The notes: generated by a model not told the origin, from the letters alone. A DNA stretch of 64,000 nucleotides from Escherichia coli (GCF_965641715.1 NZ_OZ282453.1), one strand, 5' to 3'; shown: positions 1-61,848, numbered from the stretch's first letter. Program-made: numbers and translations.

Positions 1-1297
1 ATTGACGTTTTGACCGGATTATCCAGCACCGGCAGGCGTTCTATGGTAATGGTATAGGTCGATTCACGCGCGCCACTATTTCCGCCGCTGATGCCGACAT
101 TGCCCGTCAGAATAGGCAACATAGCAATAGCGCGTGCGGTCAGCTCACCGTTTGCCTGGCGTTGCGGCCCCCAGCCCTGGCAGATATAAGCGGGTTTTGC
201 TGTGCCAATTTCACGCGCCAGTTTGATGATACGGTCCTCCGGGATACCGGTAATTTGCGAAGCCCACTGCGGCGTTTTCGCTGTTTTATCGTCACCTTCA
301 CCAAGAATATAGGCTTTATAGTGACCATTTTTGGGGGCATCTGCGGGTAAGGTTTTTTCGTCATAGCCGACGCAGTATTTATCGAGAAAAGGTTGATCAA
401 CGAGATTTTCGTTAATCAATACCCAGGCAATACCCGCAACCAGCGCGGCATCGGTGCCCGGGCGAATAGGAAGCCATTCGTCTTCACGACCGGCAGCCGT
501 ATCGGTATATCGCGGATCGATAACAATCATTTTTGCGTTCGATTTTTCGCGCGCTTTTTCAAGAAGATAAGTGATGCCACCGCCGCTCATGCGGGTTTCT
601 GCTGGGTTGTTACCAAACATCACGACCAGCTTGCTGTTTTCAATATCCGTGGTGCTGTTGCCATCATTACTGCCGTAGGTGTAGGGCATGGCACAGGAAA
701 TTTGCGCAGTGCTGTAGGAGCCATACTGGTTGAGTGAACCGCCGTAGCAGTTCATCAGGCGTTTGACCGCCGAGGCTGATGGCGAAGAGCGGGTCATATT
801 GCCGCCAACGATCCCCGAAGAGTACTGAATATATACAGCCTCATTGCCATATTGTTCGACGGTTTTTTTCAGGCTACTGGCGATAGTATCCAGGGCTTCA
901 TCCCAGCTAATCCGTTCGAATTTGCCTTCACCGCGTTTACCCACGCGTTTCATTGGGTAATTCAAGCGATCGGGATGATTAATACGCCGGCGGATGGAGC
1001 GACCGCGCAAACAGGCGCGTACTTGATGATTGCCATACTCATCGCTGCCGGTGTTGTCAGTTTCCACCCAGGTCACTTCATTATCTTTAACATGTAGACG
1101 AAGTGCACAGCGGCTACCACAGTTGACGGAACAGGCACCCCAGACCACTTTTTCGCGGGCCTGTTGTACCGCTGCTGCTGCACTGCGCAGGGTAAACGGC
1201 AAAGAAAAACCGCCTGCAGCCAGCGCCAGAGAACCTATCGCGGTAGATTTAACGAGTGTTCTGCGGCTGATGCCCACCATTCGGTCATTTTTGGACA
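1..1297 (-). CDS. ynfE: DMSO-reductase-family molybdoenzyme catalytic subunit YnfE, N-terminal part (gene continues beyond window start)
   Basis: Reverse-complement translation from ATG at 1297 gives MSKNDRMVGISRRTLVKSTAIGSLALAAGG (twin-arginine signal) in one open frame to position 1; absent from ORF track because truncated; synteny with ynfD. Confidence 0.85.
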
Positions 1298-1496
1298 TAA
1301 CTCACTCCCTGTTCTTTATCGTTATATAAATGTTTATATATTGAATATTTAGCGCGCTAACAATAGAGGGGGTCTACCCATTTTGGGTTAAGAATTATTA
1401 ATCCACATCAATAGAAGGGTATGAGTAATATGGTGGGATTATGTTGTATGTTCAAATCGCCGGATGTGTCATATCCGGCGTTCAGTCGATAATGTG

Positions 1497-1805: not shown

Positions 1806-1909
1806 AAGCTCCTTACGCGAAGATAACTTCTTTAAGCATAGCATTTAACGTGTAAAGTACTGTATTTGCTACTATGATTGAGAATCATCTCTACTCTCTG
1901 GTGACTGTT

Positions 1910-2620
1910 GTGAAATACAAATTACTACCATGCTTACTCGCGATATTCCTCACAGGATGTGACCGCACAGAGGTAACACTTTCATTTACCCCTGAGATGG
2001 CCAGTTTCTCTAATGAATTCGATTTTGATCCGCTGCGTGGTCCGGTAAAAGATTTCACTCAGACATTAATGGATGAGCAAGGTGAAGTGACGAAACGTGT
2101 TTCGGGGACTTTGTCGGAAGAAGGCTGTTTTGATTCACTCGAATTACTGGATCTGGAAAATAATACCGTGGTCGCTCTGGTACTGGACGCCAATTATTAT
2201 CGTGATGCCGAGACGCTGGAGAAGAGAGTACGTTTACAGGGAAAATGCCAGCTAGCAGAATTACCTTCTGCCGGGGTGAGTTGGGAAACCGATGATAATG
2301 GCTTCGTGATTAAAGCCAGCAGCAAACAAATGCAGATGGAATATCGCTATGATGATCAGGGTTATCCACTGGGTAAGACCACGAAAAGTAACGACAAAAC
2401 ATTATCTGTCAGCGCCACGCCATCAACGGACCCGATCAAAAAATTAGATTACACAGCGGTTACTTTACTGAATAATCAACGAGTTGGTAATGTAAAACAG
2501 AGCTGTGAATATGACAGTCACGCCAATCCGGTGGACTGTCAGCTGATCATTGTTGATGAAGGAGTAAAACCCGCCGTCGAACGGGTTTACACCATCAAAA
2601 ATACAATCGATTATTATTAA
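1910..2620 (+). CDS. ynfC: UPF0257 lipoprotein YnfC
   Basis: ORF 1874..2620; GTG at 1910 gives KYKLLPCLLAIFLTGC lipobox; alternative ATG at 1874. Confidence 0.85.
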   Translation: MKYKLLPCLLAIFLTGCDRTEVTLSFTPEMASFSNEFDFDPLRGPVKDFTQTLMDEQGEVTKRVSGTLSEEGCFDSLELLDLENNTVVALVLDANYYRDAETLEKRVRLQGKCQLAELPSAGVSWETDDNGFVIKASSKQMQMEYRYDDQGYPLGKTTKSNDKTLSVSATPSTDPIKKLDYTAVTLLNNQRVGNVKQSCEYDSHANPVDCQLIIVDEGVKPAVERVYTIKNTIDYY

Positions 2621-11239: not shown

Positions 11240-11414
11240 TATCGCGTCCTCAACAATGAATTTTGTGATGCAGTGCCTGGTGCCTCCAGGTGACGTTAAC
11301 CAGTTAACAATTAACGCCGGATACAGAGAATCCACCCATAACACTGTTTTTGGTTTTAACTGTTCCGCGTGCGCTTAGCCGCATTCACCGCATCACAAAA
11401 TTCACTTTAAAAAC

Positions 11415-11466
11415 GGCGGCAGAGCAGTCACGGAGTAAAACTGATACCGCCAAACGTCACCAGAAA
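11415..11466 (-). ncRNA. dicF: DicF small RNA (ftsZ-targeting sRNA)
   Basis: Minus-strand sequence tttctggtgacgtttggcggtatcagttttactccgtgactgctctgccgcc matches remembered DicF; lies directly upstream of dicB in the same operon orientation. Confidence 0.75.
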
Positions 11467-15238: not shown

Positions 15239-15614
15239 TGTTAGGTATTTTAGACGTTACTAGATTAAAAAGCATTAGTTCAGGAGTGAATTGACATTCT
15301 CATTTTTCATGGCACAGGGTAGATCTGGCGTGGTTGTCCGCTTTGTGCCAAGAGCGGACGTTGGTATGCAAGAGCCCTCCAAAAGTTGATGGTTGGTTTG
15401 CAGGGGGGCTTAAAGAAACTGCACTTATCAAGTTGAAGTTCTGTATTCAGCGAAATCGTAGCACTCTGACGATAAGTAACTCCGGTACTCCGCTCTTCGA
15501 TGAAGAACCAGAGTAATCCCCCCGAAAAACCAGCGCATCAAAATTGGATCTTCAGCGGTAGCTTATCGGCTATCGGAAGTACAGGTGTGGATTCGTGGTG
15601 AATTGCTTTGATAA

Positions 15615-15650
15615 TAAACGATTAATACGGAAAAACGTATTAATCATTTA
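15615..15650 (-). terminator. Inverted repeat / putative terminator 3' of the 449-aa gene
   Basis: taaacgattaatacg-gaaaaa-cgtattaatcattta; 15-nt arms with one mismatch, ~23 nt past the stop of the minus-strand gene. Confidence 0.4.
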
Positions 15651-15672
15651 TTAGCTTTTAGTAAACCACAAT

Positions 15673-17022
15673 TTATTCCGTTTTACATATCATAGTAGTC
15701 GATTGGAGAATATAGTTTCTGGGAATGTACTCTTCAAAGTGTTCGTCCTTTTTAAATACATGAACTACATTTGGGAATAATTGATAGTCAACAGGGTGTA
15801 TAGCGTTTGGATTATGGTACATGTACATGGCTGTACACCATGGTTCTTGATAGTTAGGGTCACTTACATCGGCTGAAAATGGATGTGGGGCTGCATCCTG
15901 ATCAGTTTTAACACCACTGACGTACACTTTGAATCCACTCGCCTCTACACCTGCAAGAATTCCCATCCGGTTAAACTTAGGTATGGTTGCTTGAGTAGTG
16001 AGTAAAACGGCAGAAACATAATTATTTTGTTCTGAGCCAAAAAAGTTCGACTTGATACTTCTATTTTCATCTGTATGTCTTTCAATAGAAATGCCTGACT
16101 CAATATCAATCCCGTACAAATAGCTATGCAAGGCTTCGCTTGAGAAGGCCATGGACATTCTTTTTGAATAATCCTGCATTGCTATGACAAATGGTTTGTT
16201 CTTTGTATGGTTGAGTTCCCAGTAATGAACTTTCTCTGGCTCAGGGCAATGCCGGACTTTTTTTAATAAACTTCTTGCAAACTTAAAAGGCATGACATTT
16301 AGAACATGTTTTCTTAATTCATCCATCTGTTCATCGTTAATGACTTTTCTTTCAAGAGGGGCTTCTGCTTCAGCAATGCTTACAGCCTCTACAGCAATTT
16401 CCACTCCAAATTTAGATAGCAGAAAATCTGGTTGATTGTATTCTCTATTCATTTCAAAGTCGAGTTCATAAAATACAGCGTTCAAATATAATTCAAATAA
16501 CCTTGAATTAAATGCATCACTTTGAAAATCCCTTATAAATATTCCATCAGGATCTTTGAACCAGTATGCAAGTTCCTCAAGAACAATATATGCAGGGAAA
16601 TGAGGAGGGTCTTCGAGGAGCATTTTTATATAAACATTCCTTTTTTTCTCTGGGACTTTACTCAAGAATAATGAAAAAGGTTTGGTTGATTCATCGCCTT
16701 GCATGAATGTACCATTTTGGTGCTGCGCCAGCATCTTTGGTATGTCATCGTTCAAATTATTAAGCAAGACATCCATTGAATCAAATGAAGCCAAGACGTT
16801 TATTGCTCTGAATTTTTTATCTAAATCCCGACCTAAGACTATTGCGTTAAAATCTTTATCAATATTGCATATGATTATTGTGGATAACAATGTTATCCCA
16901 TTCCCCTCATATTTAAACCAGCGTATCTCCTCAGAAAATGTCTTAAGGTAAGGTGAGCGACCGTAAAAATAAATATCAAATTGTTCTTTGCTGATCTCAC
17001 TGAAGTGTAATCCTGCGTTCAT
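15673..17022 (-). CDS. Orphan 449-aa protein of unknown function (candidate accessory/defence gene)
   Basis: Single long ORF on the opposite strand to flanking phage genes, AAAGGA RBS, visibly AT-rich, flanked by ~430 and ~440 bp of non-coding DNA; no Walker A, no family recognised. Confidence 0.75.
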   Translation of the reverse strand: MNAGLHFSEISKEQFDIYFYGRSPYLKTFSEEIRWFKYEGNGITLLSTIIICNIDKDFNAIVLGRDLDKKFRAINVLASFDSMDVLLNNLNDDIPKMLAQHQNGTFMQGDESTKPFSLFLSKVPEKKRNVYIKMLLEDPPHFPAYIVLEELAYWFKDPDGIFIRDFQSDAFNSRLFELYLNAVFYELDFEMNREYNQPDFLLSKFGVEIAVEAVSIAEAEAPLERKVINDEQMDELRKHVLNVMPFKFARSLLKKVRHCPEPEKVHYWELNHTKNKPFVIAMQDYSKRMSMAFSSEALHSYLYGIDIESGISIERHTDENRSIKSNFFGSEQNNYVSAVLLTTQATIPKFNRMGILAGVEASGFKVYVSGVKTDQDAAPHPFSADVSDPNYQEPWCTAMYMYHNPNAIHPVDYQLFPNVVHVFKKDEHFEEYIPRNYILQSTTMICKTE

Positions 17023-17464
17023 ACCAATTCCTTTTCAATGAATAATTGGCCTTTAGGAGTGATTCCCTTTGTCTTTAATTCAGTTCTAACTAGTTCTTTA
17101 ATCCAATAGCCTAAGCTCATCATGCAGTTGGATCATAAGACAACGCCCTATAGTGCTCGTGATACTATAGGGCATCTGACCACACTGTTAACTGGAGTAA
17201 CGACTATGGCAGGAATACAGCATAACCAAACTCACCCCAAACTTACATAGCGCTTTCTGGCCGTGAGCATAACAAGGTCCACTCCTCGCTCAAAGCGGAC
17301 TAGAAGGTTAGCTTGTGTCGGACTTTGCGTATTAAATGACTAGTGGTTGAGCCCCATTTCCACAGAAAAAATCAGAGAAACTATACCCAATAGTTGTATT
17401 GAATCACTGACGAGACAGCCTCATATTCATCAGGACTGGTGTACGTCCAATACAGGAGGTTGTG

Positions 17465-17554
17465 GTGCTGGTTCTCAAATGTGCGCTGGCTATTACGGCT
17501 GTAATGGCGATTTATTGTCTTGCTATTGTTCTTATGGATCGCCTTTCTGACTGA
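17465..17554 (+). CDS. Candidate small hydrophobic peptide (29 aa), type-I-toxin-like
   Basis: AGGAGG (17454..17459) then GTG 17465; MLVLKCALAITAVMAIYCLAIVLMDRLSD = one predicted TM helix plus charged tail. Confidence 0.3.
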   Translation: MLVLKCALAITAVMAIYCLAIVLMDRLSD

Positions 17555-17765
17555 TTTCACATTGGCGAGGTAACGGTAGTTAAGTAGAATGGCTGCGGGT
17601 GCTTGAGGCTATCTGCCTCGGGCATGAACACCAACGGCAGATAGAGAAAAGCCCCAGTTAACATTACGCGTCCTGCAAGACGCTTAACATTAATCTGAGG
17701 CCAATTTCATGCTAGACACATGTAGGTTAGCCTCTTACGTGCCGAAAGGCAAGGAGAAGCAGGCT

Positions 17766-17921
17766 ATGAAGCAGCAAAAGGCGATGTTAATCGCCCTGAT
17801 CGTCATCTGTTTAACCGTCATAGTGACGGCACTGGTAACGAGGAAAGACCTCTGCGAGGTACGAATCCGAACCGGGCAGACGGAGGTCGCTGTCTTCACA
17901 GCTTACGAACCTGAGGAGTAA
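17766..17921 (+). CDS. hokD: Hok-family type I toxin (HokD/RelF-like)
   Basis: MKQQKAMLIALIVICLTVIVTALVTRKDLCEVRIRTGQTEVAVFTAYEPEE; AAGGAG RBS; ORF track shows in-frame upstream extension from 17709 (mok-like). Confidence 0.9.
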   Translation: MKQQKAMLIALIVICLTVIVTALVTRKDLCEVRIRTGQTEVAVFTAYEPEE

Positions 17922-17990
17922 GAGACCCGGCGAGGGAGAAATCCCTCGCCACCTCTGATGTGGCAGGCATCCTCAACGCACCCGCACTTA

Positions 17991-18016
17991 ACCCGCTTCG
18001 GCGGGTTTTTGTTTTT
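17991..18016 (+). terminator. Rho-independent terminator after hokD
   Basis: acccgc-ttcg-gcgggt hairpin followed by tttttgttttt. Confidence 0.7.
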
Positions 18017-18137
18017 ATTTTCAACGCGTTTGAAGTTCTGGACGGTGCCGGAATAGAATCAAAAATACTTAAGTAGCGCGCAGGGATAAGAGGGATGGTC
18101 CCTTAAAGGGGAGAGCTAATTATCCGGAAGGATTCTG

Positions 18138-18389
18138 ATGATGAACATCGAAGAACTGCGTAAAATTTTTTGTGAAGATGGCCTCTATGCGGTGTGCGTT
18201 GAAAATGGAAATCTTGTTAGTCATTACCGCATTATGTGTTTGCGAAAGAATGGGGCTGCGTTAATTAATTTTGTGGATGGTCGAGTGACAGACGGATTTA
18301 TCTTGCGCGAAGGTGAGTTTGTCACTTCATTACAGGCACTGAAAGAGATCGGAATAAAAGCAGGCTTTTCAGCTTTTGCAGAAGAATAA
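18138..18389 (+). CDS. Hypothetical 83-aa protein (Rem-position)
   Basis: 83-aa ORF directly after hokD, same size and position as Qin rem in K-12 (identity from synteny only). Confidence 0.5.
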   Translation: MMNIEELRKIFCEDGLYAVCVENGNLVSHYRIMCLRKNGAALINFVDGRVTDGFILREGEFVTSLQALKEIGIKAGFSAFAEE

Positions 18390-18455
18390 ACTCATCTACA
18401 ATCTTGCGCGGGGCTGAACTCCCGCTGAGTAACACCGTGCCACCGGAGAAAACCG

Positions 18456-49608: not shown

Positions 49609-50183
49609 TGGCATTCAGAATGAGTGAACAACCACGGACCATAAAAATTTATAATCTGCTGGCAGGAACTAATGAATTTATTGGTGAAGGTGACGCATAT
49701 ATTCCGCCTCATACAGGTCTGCCAGCAAACAGTTCCTATATTGCACCGCCAGATATTCCGGCTGGCTTCGTGGCTGTTTTCAACAGTGATGAGGCATCGT
49801 GGCATCTCGTTGAAGATCATCGGGGTAAAACCGTCTATGACGTGGCTTCCGGCGACGCGTTATTTATTTCTGAACTTGGCCCATTACCGGAAAATATCAC
49901 CTGGTTATCCCCGGAAGGGGAGTTTCAGAAGTGGAACGGCACAGCCTGGGTGAAGGATACGGAAGCAGCAAAACTGTTCCGGATCCGGGAGGCGGAAGAA
50001 ACAAAAAACAACCTGATGCAGGTAGCCAGTGAGCATATTGCGCCGCTTCAGGATGCTGCAGATCTGGAAATTGCAACGGAGGAAGAAATCTCGTTGCTGG
50101 AAGCATGGAAAAAGTATCGGGTATTGCTGAACCGTGTTGATACGTCAACTGCACAGGATATTGAATGGCCAGCACTGCCGTAG
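49608..50183 (+). CDS. tfa: Tail fibre assembly protein (Tfa)
   Basis: 191 aa, ATGA overlap with stf; Tfa-like sequence. Confidence 0.85.
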
Positions 50184-61533: not shown

Positions 61534-61752
61534 GCTCCGTTTAACATTCATTGAGAAAACTGATGCTACTGTGTCAACGATCCGTTATCAGTGCAGGAAA
61601 ATGCCTGTTAGCGTAAAAGCAAAACACAAATCTATCCATGCAAGCATTCACCGCCGGTTTACTGGCGGTTTTTTTTTCGCCGTCATAAAAATCAGGCCCC
61701 TTGTACACAACTGTAACAAGGGGCCGGTTAGGTGAGGGATTATCTCCGTTCA

Positions 61753-61848
61753 TTAGTCATCCCATTTGTGGCTGAAATACGCGGCCAGAAAACCAGAAAA
61801 TAAAATTATTCCCAGTACGGCCATAAAAACATTCATATTACCCAGCAT
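61753..61848 (-). CDS. mgtS: Small membrane protein MgtS (YneM), 31 aa
   Basis: Minus-strand GGAGG RBS then MLGNMNVFMAVLGIILFSGFLAAYFSHKWDD; below ORF-track size cutoff; matches remembered MgtS. Confidence 0.7.
   Translation of the reverse strand: MLGNMNVFMAVLGIILFSGFLAAYFSHKWDD

What the first reader, a model, noticed from the sequence alone, without database searches (positions are those of the whole stretch)
17709..18016. hokD present without relBE; in-frame mok-like extension
The Hok toxin sequence is essentially that of RelF/HokD, with a fold-back region and terminator downstream, but the relB-relE genes that precede hokD in K-12 Qin (from memory) are absent. The upstream overlapping reading frame is in frame with hok (ORF from 17709) rather than in the shifted frame classically described for mok. 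Regulation of this hok copy (sok antisense, mok coupling) may therefore differ.
Basis: partly seen in the sequence, partly recalled or inferred. Interest (0 to 1): 0.3.

Follow-up and report, generated by a model that had tools for sequence, protein, structure and literature searches.

The report
Intact hokD-type hok/sok toxin-antitoxin locus
This is an ordinary, complete copy of the well-known hok/mok/sok RNA-controlled toxin-antitoxin module carried by a lambda-like prophage; the laboratory strain K-12, where relBE has replaced its control region, is the unusual version.

Summary
A 51-aa Hok identical to K-12 HokD/RelF lies at 17766..17921. An in-frame ATG lies 57 nt upstream (17709), a fold-back segment and terminator lie downstream, and relB/relE are absent from all 64 kb.

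The interpretation that regulation may differ is not supported. The window holds the full hok/sok apparatus:
- hok promoter and 5' tac element
- mok Shine-Dalgarno and start
- Sok promoter and Sok hairpin on the minus strand
- ucb/dcb, fbi and terminator

Rfam's sok family scores 115 bits. K-12 homology begins only about 15 nt before the hok ATG, so K-12 is the truncated, derived form.

About 71% of complete E. coli genomes carry the intact leader. About 21% carry the relE-hokD junction.

In-frame mok is already annotated: mokC in MG1655, and mokW in phage 933W (93% identical to this ORF). [quoted passage not shown]

Among near-identical hokD loci the mok start sits at -56, -57 or -58, so the frame is labile and carries no special meaning.

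The only mildly new point is a hypervariable Sok-recognition segment (17702..17723).

Verdict: already known, low interest.

The parts
17562..17590 (+). hok/mok mRNA promoter: -35 TTGGCG, 17-nt spacer, -10 TAGAAT
   Evidence: Promoter scan. It lies 7 nt upstream of the GGGUGCUUGAGG 5' end that matches position 1 of the Rfam sok/hok-leader model. This region is absent from K-12.
17597..18012 (+). Predicted full-length hok mRNA (about 416 nt)
   Evidence: Bounded by the Rfam model start and the terminator. MFE is -173.7 kcal/mol with z=-7.5 against shuffles. Conserved end to end in 60 unique IMG/VR homologues.
17597..17608 (+). tac element (the mRNA 5' end, which pairs with fbi)
   Evidence: The MFE fold pairs nt 1-12 with 17971..17983. 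This helix is 99.3% paired in 24 homologues. Compensatory versions occur in hokB and an R1-like plasmid locus.
17651..17702 (+). Leader hairpin whose complement forms the Sok terminator hairpin
   Evidence: Rfam consensus structure. Three pairs change on both sides (helix 5). Minus-strand fold.
17647..17717 (-). Predicted Sok antisense RNA (about 71-75 nt): a 15-nt single-stranded 5' tail, a long hairpin and a U-tract
   Evidence: Coordinates transferred from the annotated sokW of 933W (71 nt, overlapping the mokW start by 9 nt) and from the sokC 5' end in MG1655. Fold energy is -28.7 kcal/mol, z=-5.1.
17724..17752 (-). Sok promoter on the minus strand: -35 TTGCCT (17752..17747), 17-nt spacer, -10 TAACCT (17729..17724)
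   Evidence: Read directly. Conserved in the alignment with the sokW, sokC, sokB and R1-like regions. These bases are identical in 933W/Sp5, where mutating sokW's own promoter unleashed HokW toxicity (PMC8621323). The consensus scan did not call it, because the -10 matches only 3 of 6 positions.
17696..17699 (+). mok Shine-Dalgarno (GAGG)
   Evidence: Invariant TGAGGC in 24 homologues; 9 nt upstream of the ATG at 17709.
17709..17921 (+). mok reading frame, in frame with hok (70 codons; 19-codon leader plus Hok)
   Evidence: 93% identical to MokW and 74% to MokC. PHROG 251 'MokW-like host killing' at 7.7e-33, though that match covers residues 20-69, the Hok part.
17697..17734 (+). mok-start hairpin, the Sok target; its core 17702..17723 is hypervariable between loci
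   Evidence: Leader fold and Rfam structure. Mean column entropy is 0.81 bits here versus 0.02-0.32 elsewhere, with 16 variants among 60 unique sequences.
17732..17738 (+). ucb-like box (CUCUUAC), which pairs with dcb
   Evidence: Helix 9 is 100% paired in 24 sequences. A compensatory CUUAG/CUAAG version occurs in the R1-like locus.
17751..17756 (+). hok Shine-Dalgarno (AAGGAG)
   Evidence: Read directly. The 17753..17765 segment has entropy 0.03. K-12 homology starts at about 17752.
17766..17921 (+). hok toxin gene (HokD-type, 51 aa)
   Evidence: 100% identical to K-12 HokD. Pfam HOK_GEF PF01848 at 3e-23. RefSeq annotation is hokD.
17904..17907 (+). TACG at the Tyr47 codon: the TadA A-to-I editing motif (Tyr to Cys) reported for hokD mRNA
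   Evidence: Read directly. Editing of hokD at about 6% in K-12 is reported in PMC12214031 and in bioRxiv 10.1101/2025.08.07.668861. Not tested here.
17918..17924 (+). dcb-like box (GUAAGAG, spanning the hok stop codon)
   Evidence: Helix 9; duplex calculation.
17929..17950 (+). 3'-UTR stem-loop GGCGAGGGA-GAAA-UCCCUCGCC
   Evidence: Helix 19 is 99.5% paired and has one pair with both sides changed.
17971..17983 (+). fbi (fold-back inhibition) element CCUCAACGCACCC
   Evidence: Pairs with 17597..17608 at -21.5 kcal/mol. Conserved.
17990..18016 (+). Intrinsic terminator of the hok mRNA
   Evidence: Terminator scan: 7-bp stem with 5 GC pairs, then a T-run. Helix 21 is 98.8% paired.

Best explanation
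The region 17562..18016 is a complete hok/mok/sok type I toxin-antitoxin module of the hokD/hokW subtype. It sits in the early-right ('nin-like') region of a Qin/mEp460-like lambdoid prophage.

Inferred mechanism, by homology to R1 hok/sok and Sp5 hokW-sokW:
1. A constitutive promoter (17562..17590) makes a mRNA of about 416 nt. Its 5' tac (17597..17608) pairs with the 3' fbi (17971..17983). The full-length transcript is therefore inert, neither translated nor bound by Sok.
2. Slow 3' trimming removes fbi. The 5' end then refolds and the mok-start hairpin (17697..17734) becomes accessible.
3. While the element is present, the short-lived Sok RNA pairs with the mok Shine-Dalgarno/AUG region through its single-stranded 5' tail. 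Sok is transcribed on the minus strand from about 17717 to about 17647, from the promoter TTGCCT-17-TAACCT. The duplex is cut by RNase III.
4. If Sok disappears, ribosomes initiate at mok (17709) and translate through the structured hok Shine-Dalgarno. This allows the 51-aa Hok (17766..17921) to be made. Hok depolarises the inner membrane.

That mok is in frame with hok here is incidental; only translation through the region matters.

K-12's relB-relE-hokD is a derived rearrangement that removed everything upstream of the hok Shine-Dalgarno.

What is shown here is the set of sequence elements, their conservation and their predicted pairings. Transcription, processing, Sok action and killing are inferred.
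For: Identity of the parts:
- HokD protein is 100% identical to K-12.
- Pfam HOK_GEF scores 3e-23.
- Rfam sok RF01794 scores 115.3 bits (gathering score 59) over 17597..17771.
- The 70-aa ORF is 93% identical to the annotated MokW, and the 933W locus (94% DNA identity) is annotated with mokW, hokW and sokW in the same geometry.
- mokC in MG1655 is in frame with hokC, with the same 57-nt offset.

RNA structure:
- The full-length fold shows the 5'-3' tac-fbi closure.
- The 3'-truncated mRNA refolds its 5' end.
- The Sok-strand fold gives a 5' tail plus a terminator hairpin.
- tac-fbi and ucb-dcb are kept with compensatory changes in hokB and in R1-like plasmid loci.
- 95.3% of pair cells are paired across 24 homologues, versus 34-43% for slid controls.
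- Sok promoter elements are conserved in the sokW, sokC, sokB and R1-like regions.

Population frequency:
- The intact leader is present in 3849 of 5426 complete E. coli genomes.
- The relE-hokD junction is present in 1165 of 5426.
- Of 80 IMG/VR loci encoding identical HokD, 73 have an uninterrupted leader, 1 (L054) has a partly deleted leader that still keeps the -57 mok start, 4 have relE upstream, and 2 have an IS inserted.

mok frame:
- The mok offset varies between -57, -56 and -58 among these loci.

Literature:
- hokW-sokW of Sp5 was shown to be a functional RNase III/Hfq-dependent type I TA (PMC8621323).
- K-12 hokD is regarded as inactivated by genomic rearrangement (PMC12214031, PMC7232551, both citing Pedersen & Gerdes 1999).
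- relBE integration truncated an ancestral ORF of about 70 codons (PMC6379469).
Against: - No expression data exist for this particular copy.
- The Sok -10 (TAACCT) is weak by consensus and was not called by the promoter scan.
- The hokD-type homologues are so similar (mean column identity 94%) that most helices are invariant and give little covariation of their own.
- The MFE of the 3'-truncated RNA still keeps long-range pairing around the mok start, so the predicted 'activation' refolding is only partly reproduced in silico.
- Chromosomal hokA, hokB and hokC loci were reported not to mediate post-segregational killing (summarised in bioRxiv 10.1101/2025.08.07.668861), so activity of a chromosomal or prophage copy cannot be assumed.
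Confidence: 0.9

Rival explanations
1. The 70-codon ORF (17709..17921) is the real, ancestral 'long HokD' toxin. There is no separate mok leader, and the 51-aa form is only a K-12 truncation product.
For: [quoted passage not shown] In this window the ORF is continuous and in frame.
Against: - Among loci encoding the identical 51-aa Hok, the upstream ATG sits at -57 (in frame), at -56 (19 codons, with a TGA stop overlapping the hok ATG) or at -58 (a 68-codon shifted frame). The extension is therefore often not part of Hok at all.
- The internal AAGGAG Shine-Dalgarno and the ATG are almost invariant (entropy 0.03), whereas codons 2-6 of the extension are the most variable part of the locus.
- Pfam HOK_GEF covers only residues 25-66 of the 70-aa product.
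- RefSeq, MG1655 and 933W all annotate the 50/51-aa Hok separately.
Confidence: 0.04
2. Because mok is in frame and relBE is missing, this hok copy is regulated differently from classical hok/sok, for example without Sok or without mok coupling.
For: mok is shifted by 58 nt in R1-like plasmid loci and in K-12 mokB, so the in-frame geometry does differ from the textbook example.
Against: - Every other classical element is present and conserved.
- In-frame mok is also found in mokC, in mokW and in a Klebsiella IncHI1 plasmid locus.
- The 94%-identical hokW-sokW locus, with identical Sok promoter bases, behaves as a Sok-repressed type I TA (PMC8621323).
Confidence: 0.03
3. The locus is structurally intact but functionally silent, a decaying passenger, as proposed for chromosomal hok loci.
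For: [quoted passage not shown] IS-disrupted and relE-truncated copies exist.
Against: - No disabling lesion is visible here.
- Conservation is very high across hundreds of prophages. Variation is concentrated in the Sok-recognition segment rather than spread randomly, which argues for continuing selection.
- HokD is toxic when expressed (bioRxiv 10.1101/2025.08.07.668861), and hokW-sokW affects Sp5 phage release (PMC8621323).
Confidence: 0.1

Closest known systems
hokW/mokW/sokW of Stx2 phages 933W and Sp5 (VT2-Sakai)
   Same: - 94% DNA identity over the mRNA.
- Mok-Hok ORF 93% identical.
- Identical geometry: mok in frame, 57 nt upstream, sharing hok's stop; sok on the opposite strand, overlapping the mok start by 9 nt.
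- Identical Sok promoter bases.
- Located in a lambdoid prophage.
- Experimentally shown to be a type I TA (PMC8621323).
   Different: - The Hok C-terminus differs (VFTAYEPEE here, VFVDYESEK in HokW).
- The Sok-target segment differs at several bases (CCAATTTCATGCTAGAC versus CTCAATCCATGCTGAAC).
- The 933W copy has a different sequence after fbi and lacks this terminator.
- It occupies a different position in the phage genome (near the right end in 933W).
hokD (relF) of the relBEF operon, Qin prophage, E. coli K-12
   Same: - Identical 51-aa toxin.
- 99% identical DNA from 15 nt upstream of the ATG through the 3' UTR and terminator.
- Same downstream synteny: rem, a hypothetical gene, ydfU.
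   Different: K-12 lacks the promoter, tac, the mok Shine-Dalgarno and start, the Sok target and the Sok promoter. relB-relE and 71 nt of unrelated spacer take their place. Its hokD is co-transcribed with relBE (PMC5120126).
hokC (gef)/mokC/sokC of E. coli K-12
   Same: - In-frame mok with a 57-nt offset and a shared stop.
- MokC is 74% identical to this ORF.
- Same leader architecture, and the Sok 5' end falls at the aligned position.
   Different: - A different chromosomal locus, not in a prophage.
- The K-12 copy has IS186 inserted in its 3' UTR.
- About 25% protein divergence.
hok/mok/sok (parB) of plasmid R1 and R1-like plasmid loci
   Same: Same element order (tac, Sok terminator hairpin, mok hairpin, ucb, hok, dcb, fbi, terminator), and all fall in the same Rfam family. 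This is the mechanistic paradigm.
   Different: - mok starts 58 nt upstream, in a shifted frame. The product is annotated as DUF5431 in the R1-like Klebsiella plasmid locus examined.
- Hok is about 44% identical to HokW, the close relative of this toxin (PMC8621323).
- Plasmid-borne.

Membership tests
[quoted passage not shown] | Hok/Gef-family membrane toxin of about 50 aa | tested here: met
   Pfam PF01848 at 3e-23, 81.6 bits against a cut-off of 22. 51/51 identical to HokD.
[quoted passage not shown] | Conserved structured hok mRNA leader containing the Sok target | tested here: met
   Rfam sok RF01794 scores 115.3 bits against a gathering score of 59, matching the full model 1-157 at 17597..17771. 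The hit is on the hok-sense strand, so it identifies the locus, not the Sok transcript as such.
[quoted passage not shown] | cis-encoded antisense Sok RNA with its own promoter, a single-stranded 5' tail and a terminator hairpin, overlapping the mok translation start | tested here: met
   Sequence-level evidence only. The promoter TTGCCT-17-TAACCT and the start near 17717 align with the annotated sokW, sokC and sokB. The fold gives a 15-nt tail, a hairpin and UUUU. Transcription was not tested.
[quoted passage not shown] | mok leader ORF with its own Shine-Dalgarno, overlapping the hok start (translational coupling) | tested here: met
   GAGG at 17696..17699 and ATG at 17709, reading through the hok Shine-Dalgarno and ATG. 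93% identical to MokW. Coupling itself was not tested.
[quoted passage not shown] | mok in a frame shifted relative to hok (as in R1) | tested here: not met
   mok is in frame here (57 nt). This is not a defining feature of the family. mokC and mokW are in frame, mokB and R1-like loci use 58 nt, and hokD-type loci use -56, -57 or -58.
[quoted passage not shown] | 5' tac / 3' fbi fold-back pairing that closes the full-length mRNA | tested here: met
   The MFE fold pairs 17597..17608 with 17971..17983. The helix is 99.3% paired in 24 homologues. Compensatory versions occur in hokB and R1-like loci.
[quoted passage not shown] | ucb/dcb complementary boxes | tested here: met
   CUCUUAC (17732..17738) pairs with GUAAGAG (17918..17924) and is 100% paired. 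A compensatory CUUAG/CUAAG version occurs in the R1-like locus. Assigning these to the published ucb/dcb names rests on my own knowledge.
[quoted passage not shown] | 3' processing of the mRNA, RNase III cleavage of the Sok-hok duplex, and killing when Sok decays | not testable with these tools
   Known only from R1 (my own knowledge) and from hokW-sokW of Sp5 (PMC8621323).
relBEF operon arrangement (K-12 Qin prophage) | relB and relE immediately upstream of and co-transcribed with hokD | tested here: not met
   No RelB or RelE match in the window (best E=0.35). The K-12 alignment breaks at about 17752.

The most novel reading that the evidence does not exclude
The segment that Sok's 5' tail must recognise (17702..17723: the mok start codon, the next 4-5 codons and the hairpin loop) is a diversity hot-spot among otherwise nearly identical hokD-type loci. 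It shows 16 variants in 60 unique sequences, with an entropy of 0.81 bits against 0.02-0.32 elsewhere. Both arms of the hairpin appear, by eye, to change together.

This would fit diversifying selection for private Sok/hok pairings, analogous to plasmid antisense-RNA incompatibility groups. Such selection would let several hokD-carrying prophages coexist in one polylysogen without one Sok silencing another's hok. It would make each module addictive for its own prophage only.

The free drift of the mok frame (-56/-57/-58) would be a by-product of that turnover.
Probability: 0.4. Interest if true: 0.35.

Novelty: already known. Interest (0 to 1): 0.07.

Why it matters
It matters little as a discovery. 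The result corrects a K-12-centred expectation: the 'normal' hokD is a full hok/mok/sok module on lambdoid prophages, and relBE-hokD is a minority rearrangement.

Two practical points follow.
- Annotation pipelines label only the 51-aa hokD and omit mok and sok here.
- The in-frame 70-codon ORF should not be read as a longer toxin.

The hypervariable Sok-target segment could be a tractable natural system for studying the evolution of antisense-RNA specificity in polylysogens.

Tried and rejected
1. The consensus promoter scan found the hok promoter but not the Sok promoter, because its -10 matches only 3 of 6 positions. I located the Sok promoter by reading the minus strand and by alignment with annotated sok genes.

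2. I tested whether hokD copies from the same genome always carry different Sok-target variants. All 4 of 4 same-genome pairs differ. Given the variant frequencies, about 58% of such outcomes are expected by chance (my own arithmetic from the counts), so this is not evidence either way.

3. My DNA pattern scan of viral contigs accidentally required the 1-nt-insertion variant (AAAGGNCAAGG). It therefore sampled only the -56/-58 sublineage. It was useful for showing frame lability but is not an unbiased census. One script also timed out through my own loop error.

4. Covariation within hokD-type loci is limited because the sequences are 94% identical. I therefore used hokB and two plasmid loci for compensatory evidence, rather than building a covariance model.

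5. I considered that the shared 'ACAGGAG' breakpoint of the K-12 junction and of loci L014/L058 meant common descent. L014 and L058 turned out to carry an IS (a 362-aa transposase) inserted at the hok Shine-Dalgarno, with the leader intact about 1.1 kb upstream. They are therefore independent disruptions.

6. Pfam found nothing for the neighbouring 449-aa, 30-aa and 83-aa ORFs. PADLOC and PHROGs were more informative.

7. I did not run structure prediction or large protein searches, because identity to named proteins made them unnecessary.

Full report
**1. The observation**

Reading 17300..18400 and listing ORFs shows a 70-aa ORF at 17709..17921 on the plus strand. Its last 51 codons start at the ATG of 17766 and encode MKQQKAMLIALIVICLTVIVTALVTRKDLCEVRIRTGQTEVAVFTAYEPEE.

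- tblastn with the K-12 proteins gives 51/51 identity for HokD at 17766..17918. For RelB and RelE it gives nothing better than E=0.35 anywhere in the 64-kb window.
- The upstream ATG (17709) is exactly 57 nt, or 19 codons, before the hok ATG, so it is in frame.
- Downstream lie the segment CCUCAACGCACCC (17971..17983) and an intrinsic terminator (stem 17990..18007, then a T-run).

An open 19-codon extension alone would not be remarkable, since about 40% of random stretches lack a stop. Here, however, it has its own Shine-Dalgarno (GAGG, 17696..17699) and clear homologues (see section 3).

**2. What the region is**

Rfam's sok family (RF01794) matches 17597..17771 over its full length at 115.3 bits, against a gathering score of 59. 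The hit is on the hok-sense strand and covers the whole hok leader.

Pfam HOK_GEF matches residues 25-66 of the 70-aa product at 3e-23. PHROG 251 ('MokW-like host killing') matches at 7.7e-33.

A sigma-70-like promoter (TTGGCG-17-TAGAAT, 17562..17590) sits 7 nt upstream of the GGGUGCUUGAGG that aligns with position 1 of the Rfam model.

Folding 17597..18012 as RNA gives -173.7 kcal/mol (z=-7.5). In that fold the first 12 nt pair with 17971..17983, which is the tac/fbi fold-back typical of inert full-length hok mRNA. Removing the last approximately 42 nt makes the 5' end refold into a local hairpin. The isolated leader folds into the Rfam consensus, with the mok AUG inside a hairpin at 17697..17734.

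On the minus strand there is a -35 TTGCCT (17752..17747), a 17-nt spacer and a -10 TAACCT (17729..17724). The RNA starting at about 17717 folds into a 15-nt single-stranded tail, a long hairpin and UUUU (-28.7 kcal/mol, z=-5.1). That is the shape of Sok.

**3. Comparison with annotated loci**

*Phage 933W.* The best phage matches include 933W (AF125520), at 94% identity. There the depositors annotated three features:
- mokW, 213 nt
- hokW, 156 nt, with the same stop codon, so mokW is in frame and starts 57 nt upstream
- sokW, 71 nt on the opposite strand, overlapping the mokW start by 9 nt

Transferring those coordinates gives Sok at approximately 17647..17717 (-) in the window, the same 5' end I predicted from the promoter. 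The window's 70-aa ORF is 93% identical to MokW.

*MG1655.* mokC (16751..16960) and hokC (16751..16903) also share a stop and differ by 57 nt, so they too are in frame. In contrast, mokB and hokB differ by 58 nt at the start and end at different positions, so mokB is shifted. MokC is 74% identical to the window ORF.

*Plasmid loci.* An R1-like Klebsiella plasmid locus has mok 58 nt upstream, with the product annotated as DUF5431. A Klebsiella michiganensis IncHI1 plasmid locus has 57 nt.

So the 'classical' shifted frame is real for R1-type loci, and the in-frame arrangement is equally established.

An alignment of the Sok-promoter regions of the window, 933W, sokC, sokB and the R1-like locus shows the conserved CTTCTCCTTGCC...GTAAGAGGCTA core. 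The annotated sokC 5' end falls at the position equivalent to 17717.

**4. Relation to K-12 relBE-hokD**

Aligning the K-12 relE-hokD region with the window shows essentially perfect identity from about 17752, which is 15 nt before the hok ATG, through the terminator. There is no homology upstream of that point. K-12 therefore lacks the promoter, tac, the mok start, the Sok target and the Sok promoter. relB-relE and an unrelated 71-nt spacer take their place. Downstream synteny (rem, a hypothetical gene, ydfU) is shared.

Frequencies in 5,426 complete E. coli genomes:
- 3,849 hold at least 80% of 17540..18040, meaning the intact leader.
- 1,165 hold the relE-hokD junction.

Of 80 IMG/VR viral contigs encoding the identical HokD:
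- 73 have an uninterrupted leader.
- 1 has a partly deleted leader.
- 4 have relE upstream.
- 2 have an IS element inserted at the hok Shine-Dalgarno.

The literature agrees:
- K-12 hokD is considered inactivated by genomic rearrangement (PMC12214031 and PMC7232551, both citing Pedersen & Gerdes 1999).
- Ramisetty & Sudhakari state that the ancestral hokD ORF of about 70 codons became 51 codons through relBE integration (PMC6379469).
- hokD is co-transcribed with relBE in K-12 (PMC5120126).

'hokD without relBE' is therefore the common, ancestral state.

**5. Does the in-frame mok mean anything?**

Among the loci encoding identical HokD, the mok ATG is found in three positions:
- at -57, in frame, 70 codons: 54 IMG/VR loci plus the window and 933W
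- at -56, 19 codons, ending in a TGA that overlaps the hok ATG as ATGA: 17 loci
- at -58, a shifted 68-codon ORF: 3 loci

A second, biased sample of the sublineage carrying a 1-nt insertion (AAAGGTCAAGG) gave 88 loci at -56 and 21 at -58.

All three frames therefore occur among near-identical loci, interconverted by single-base indels. Meanwhile the hok Shine-Dalgarno and ATG are nearly invariant (entropy 0.03).

This argues that only translation through the region matters, as in the accepted coupling model. It also argues that the 70-aa product is not a distinct 'long toxin'.

**6. Family membership**

Tested and met:
- Hok/Gef toxin
- Rfam leader
- Sok promoter and RNA shape
- mok with its own Shine-Dalgarno
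- tac-fbi
- ucb-dcb
- terminator

In 24 hokD-type homologues, 95.3% of pair cells of the predicted structure are paired, versus 34-43% when partners are slid. Compensatory changes are seen in the 5' hairpin, the Sok-terminator hairpin and the 3'-UTR hairpin.

Because these sequences are 94% identical, I checked more distant members directly:
- hokB pairs GGGUGCCUGAGA with UCUCA(U)GGCACCC.
- The R1-like locus pairs GGCGCUUGAGGCUU with AAGCCUGAAGCGCC.
- The ucb/dcb pair changes from CUUAC/GUAAG to CUUAG/CUAAG in the R1-like locus.

Not testable here: transcription, 3' processing, RNase III cleavage and killing. For the closest relative, hokW-sokW of Sp5, published experiments provide several of these (PMC8621323):
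- HokW is toxic.
- sokW expressed from its own promoter is protective.
- Protection partly depends on RNase III and Hfq.
- The locus contributes to lysis and phage release after mitomycin C.

**7. Mechanism (inferred by homology)**

1. The full-length hok mRNA is locked by tac-fbi.
2. Slow 3' trimming activates it.
3. Sok, which is unstable and made in excess, pairs with the mok Shine-Dalgarno/AUG hairpin, and the duplex is degraded.
4. When Sok falls, through loss of the element, transcription arrest or prophage induction, mok is translated. The hok Shine-Dalgarno opens, and Hok kills by membrane depolarisation.

**8. Things seen on the way**

- The most variable part of the whole locus is exactly the Sok-recognition segment, 17702..17723. 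Its entropy is 0.81 bits against 0.02-0.32 elsewhere, with 16 variants, and the hairpin arms appear by eye to change together. This suggests diversification of Sok/hok specificity. A small same-genome test was uninformative.
- Immediately upstream, on the minus strand (15673..17022), lies a 449-aa gene matching the anti-phage defence protein PD-T7-1 (E=4e-157). It sits in a slot occupied by a different gene in a strain that is otherwise about 99.9% identical across the flanking regions compared.
- A conserved 30-aa hydrophobic ORF with a strong Shine-Dalgarno lies at 17462..17554.
- The hokD Tyr47 codon lies in a TACG motif (17904..17907). This is the reported TadA editing site (PMC12214031).

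**9. Verdict**

The finding is a correct observation of an ordinary, already described element. It is an intact hokD/hokW-type hok/mok/sok module in a lambdoid prophage. It is already known and of low interest (0.07). The only potentially new angle is the hypervariable Sok-target segment.

Noticed in passing
window 15673..17022 (-): A 449-aa ORF directly upstream of hok/sok matches the anti-phage defence protein PD-T7-1 (PADLOC E=4e-157). It has no Pfam hit. The stretch 15362..17277 is replaced by a different gene in strain FDAARGOS_497, which is otherwise about 99.9% identical across the flanking regions compared. Phage mEp460_ev081 carries the same ORF. This looks like a variable defence or moron slot next to the toxin-antitoxin module.
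   Followed up: partly
window 17462..17554 (+): An unannotated 30-aa hydrophobic ORF (MVLVLKCALAITAVMAIYCLAIVLMDRLSD) with a GTG start 5 nt after AGGAGG, just upstream of the hok promoter. The reading frame is kept in 18 of 80 IMG/VR hokD loci, including divergent versions, and in 4 phage genomes, where it is annotated once as hypothetical. It has no Pfam or PHROG family. It may be a small membrane protein.
   Followed up: partly
window 17702..17723 (both strands): The Sok-target / Sok 5'-tail segment is the diversity hot-spot of hokD-type loci. Its entropy is 0.81 bits against 0.02-0.32 elsewhere, with 16 variants in 60 unique sequences. The hairpin arms appear by eye to change together. This may reflect diversification of antisense specificity among co-resident prophages.
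   Followed up: partly
loci L014 and L058 (IMG/VR), about 390..1485: hokD copies disrupted by an insertion sequence (a 362-aa transposase on the minus strand) inserted at the hok Shine-Dalgarno. The rest of the leader lies intact about 1.1 kb upstream. This parallels the IS inactivation of hokA, hokC and hokE in K-12.
   Followed up: yes
window 17904..17907 (+): The Tyr47 codon of hokD lies in a TACG motif. This is the TadA A-to-I editing site (Tyr to Cys) reported for hokD mRNA at low level in K-12 (PMC12214031).
   Followed up: no
window 11414..11465 (-), 21134..21383 (+), 22083..22273 (+), 25371..25787 (+), 49951..50149 (+), 61545..61759 (+): Other Rfam hits in the window: DicF sRNA, two tRNAs (annotated Ile and Arg in the matching strain, downstream of the Q antiterminator gene), STnc100, a cspA-type thermoregulator leader, IS009 and STnc560. 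These fit a Qin/mEp460-like lambdoid prophage.
   Followed up: no
locus L005 (phage 933W), about 1900..1920: The 933W hokW copy keeps fbi but diverges immediately after it and lacks the terminator hairpin present in the window. Its mRNA 3' end must therefore be formed differently.
   Followed up: no
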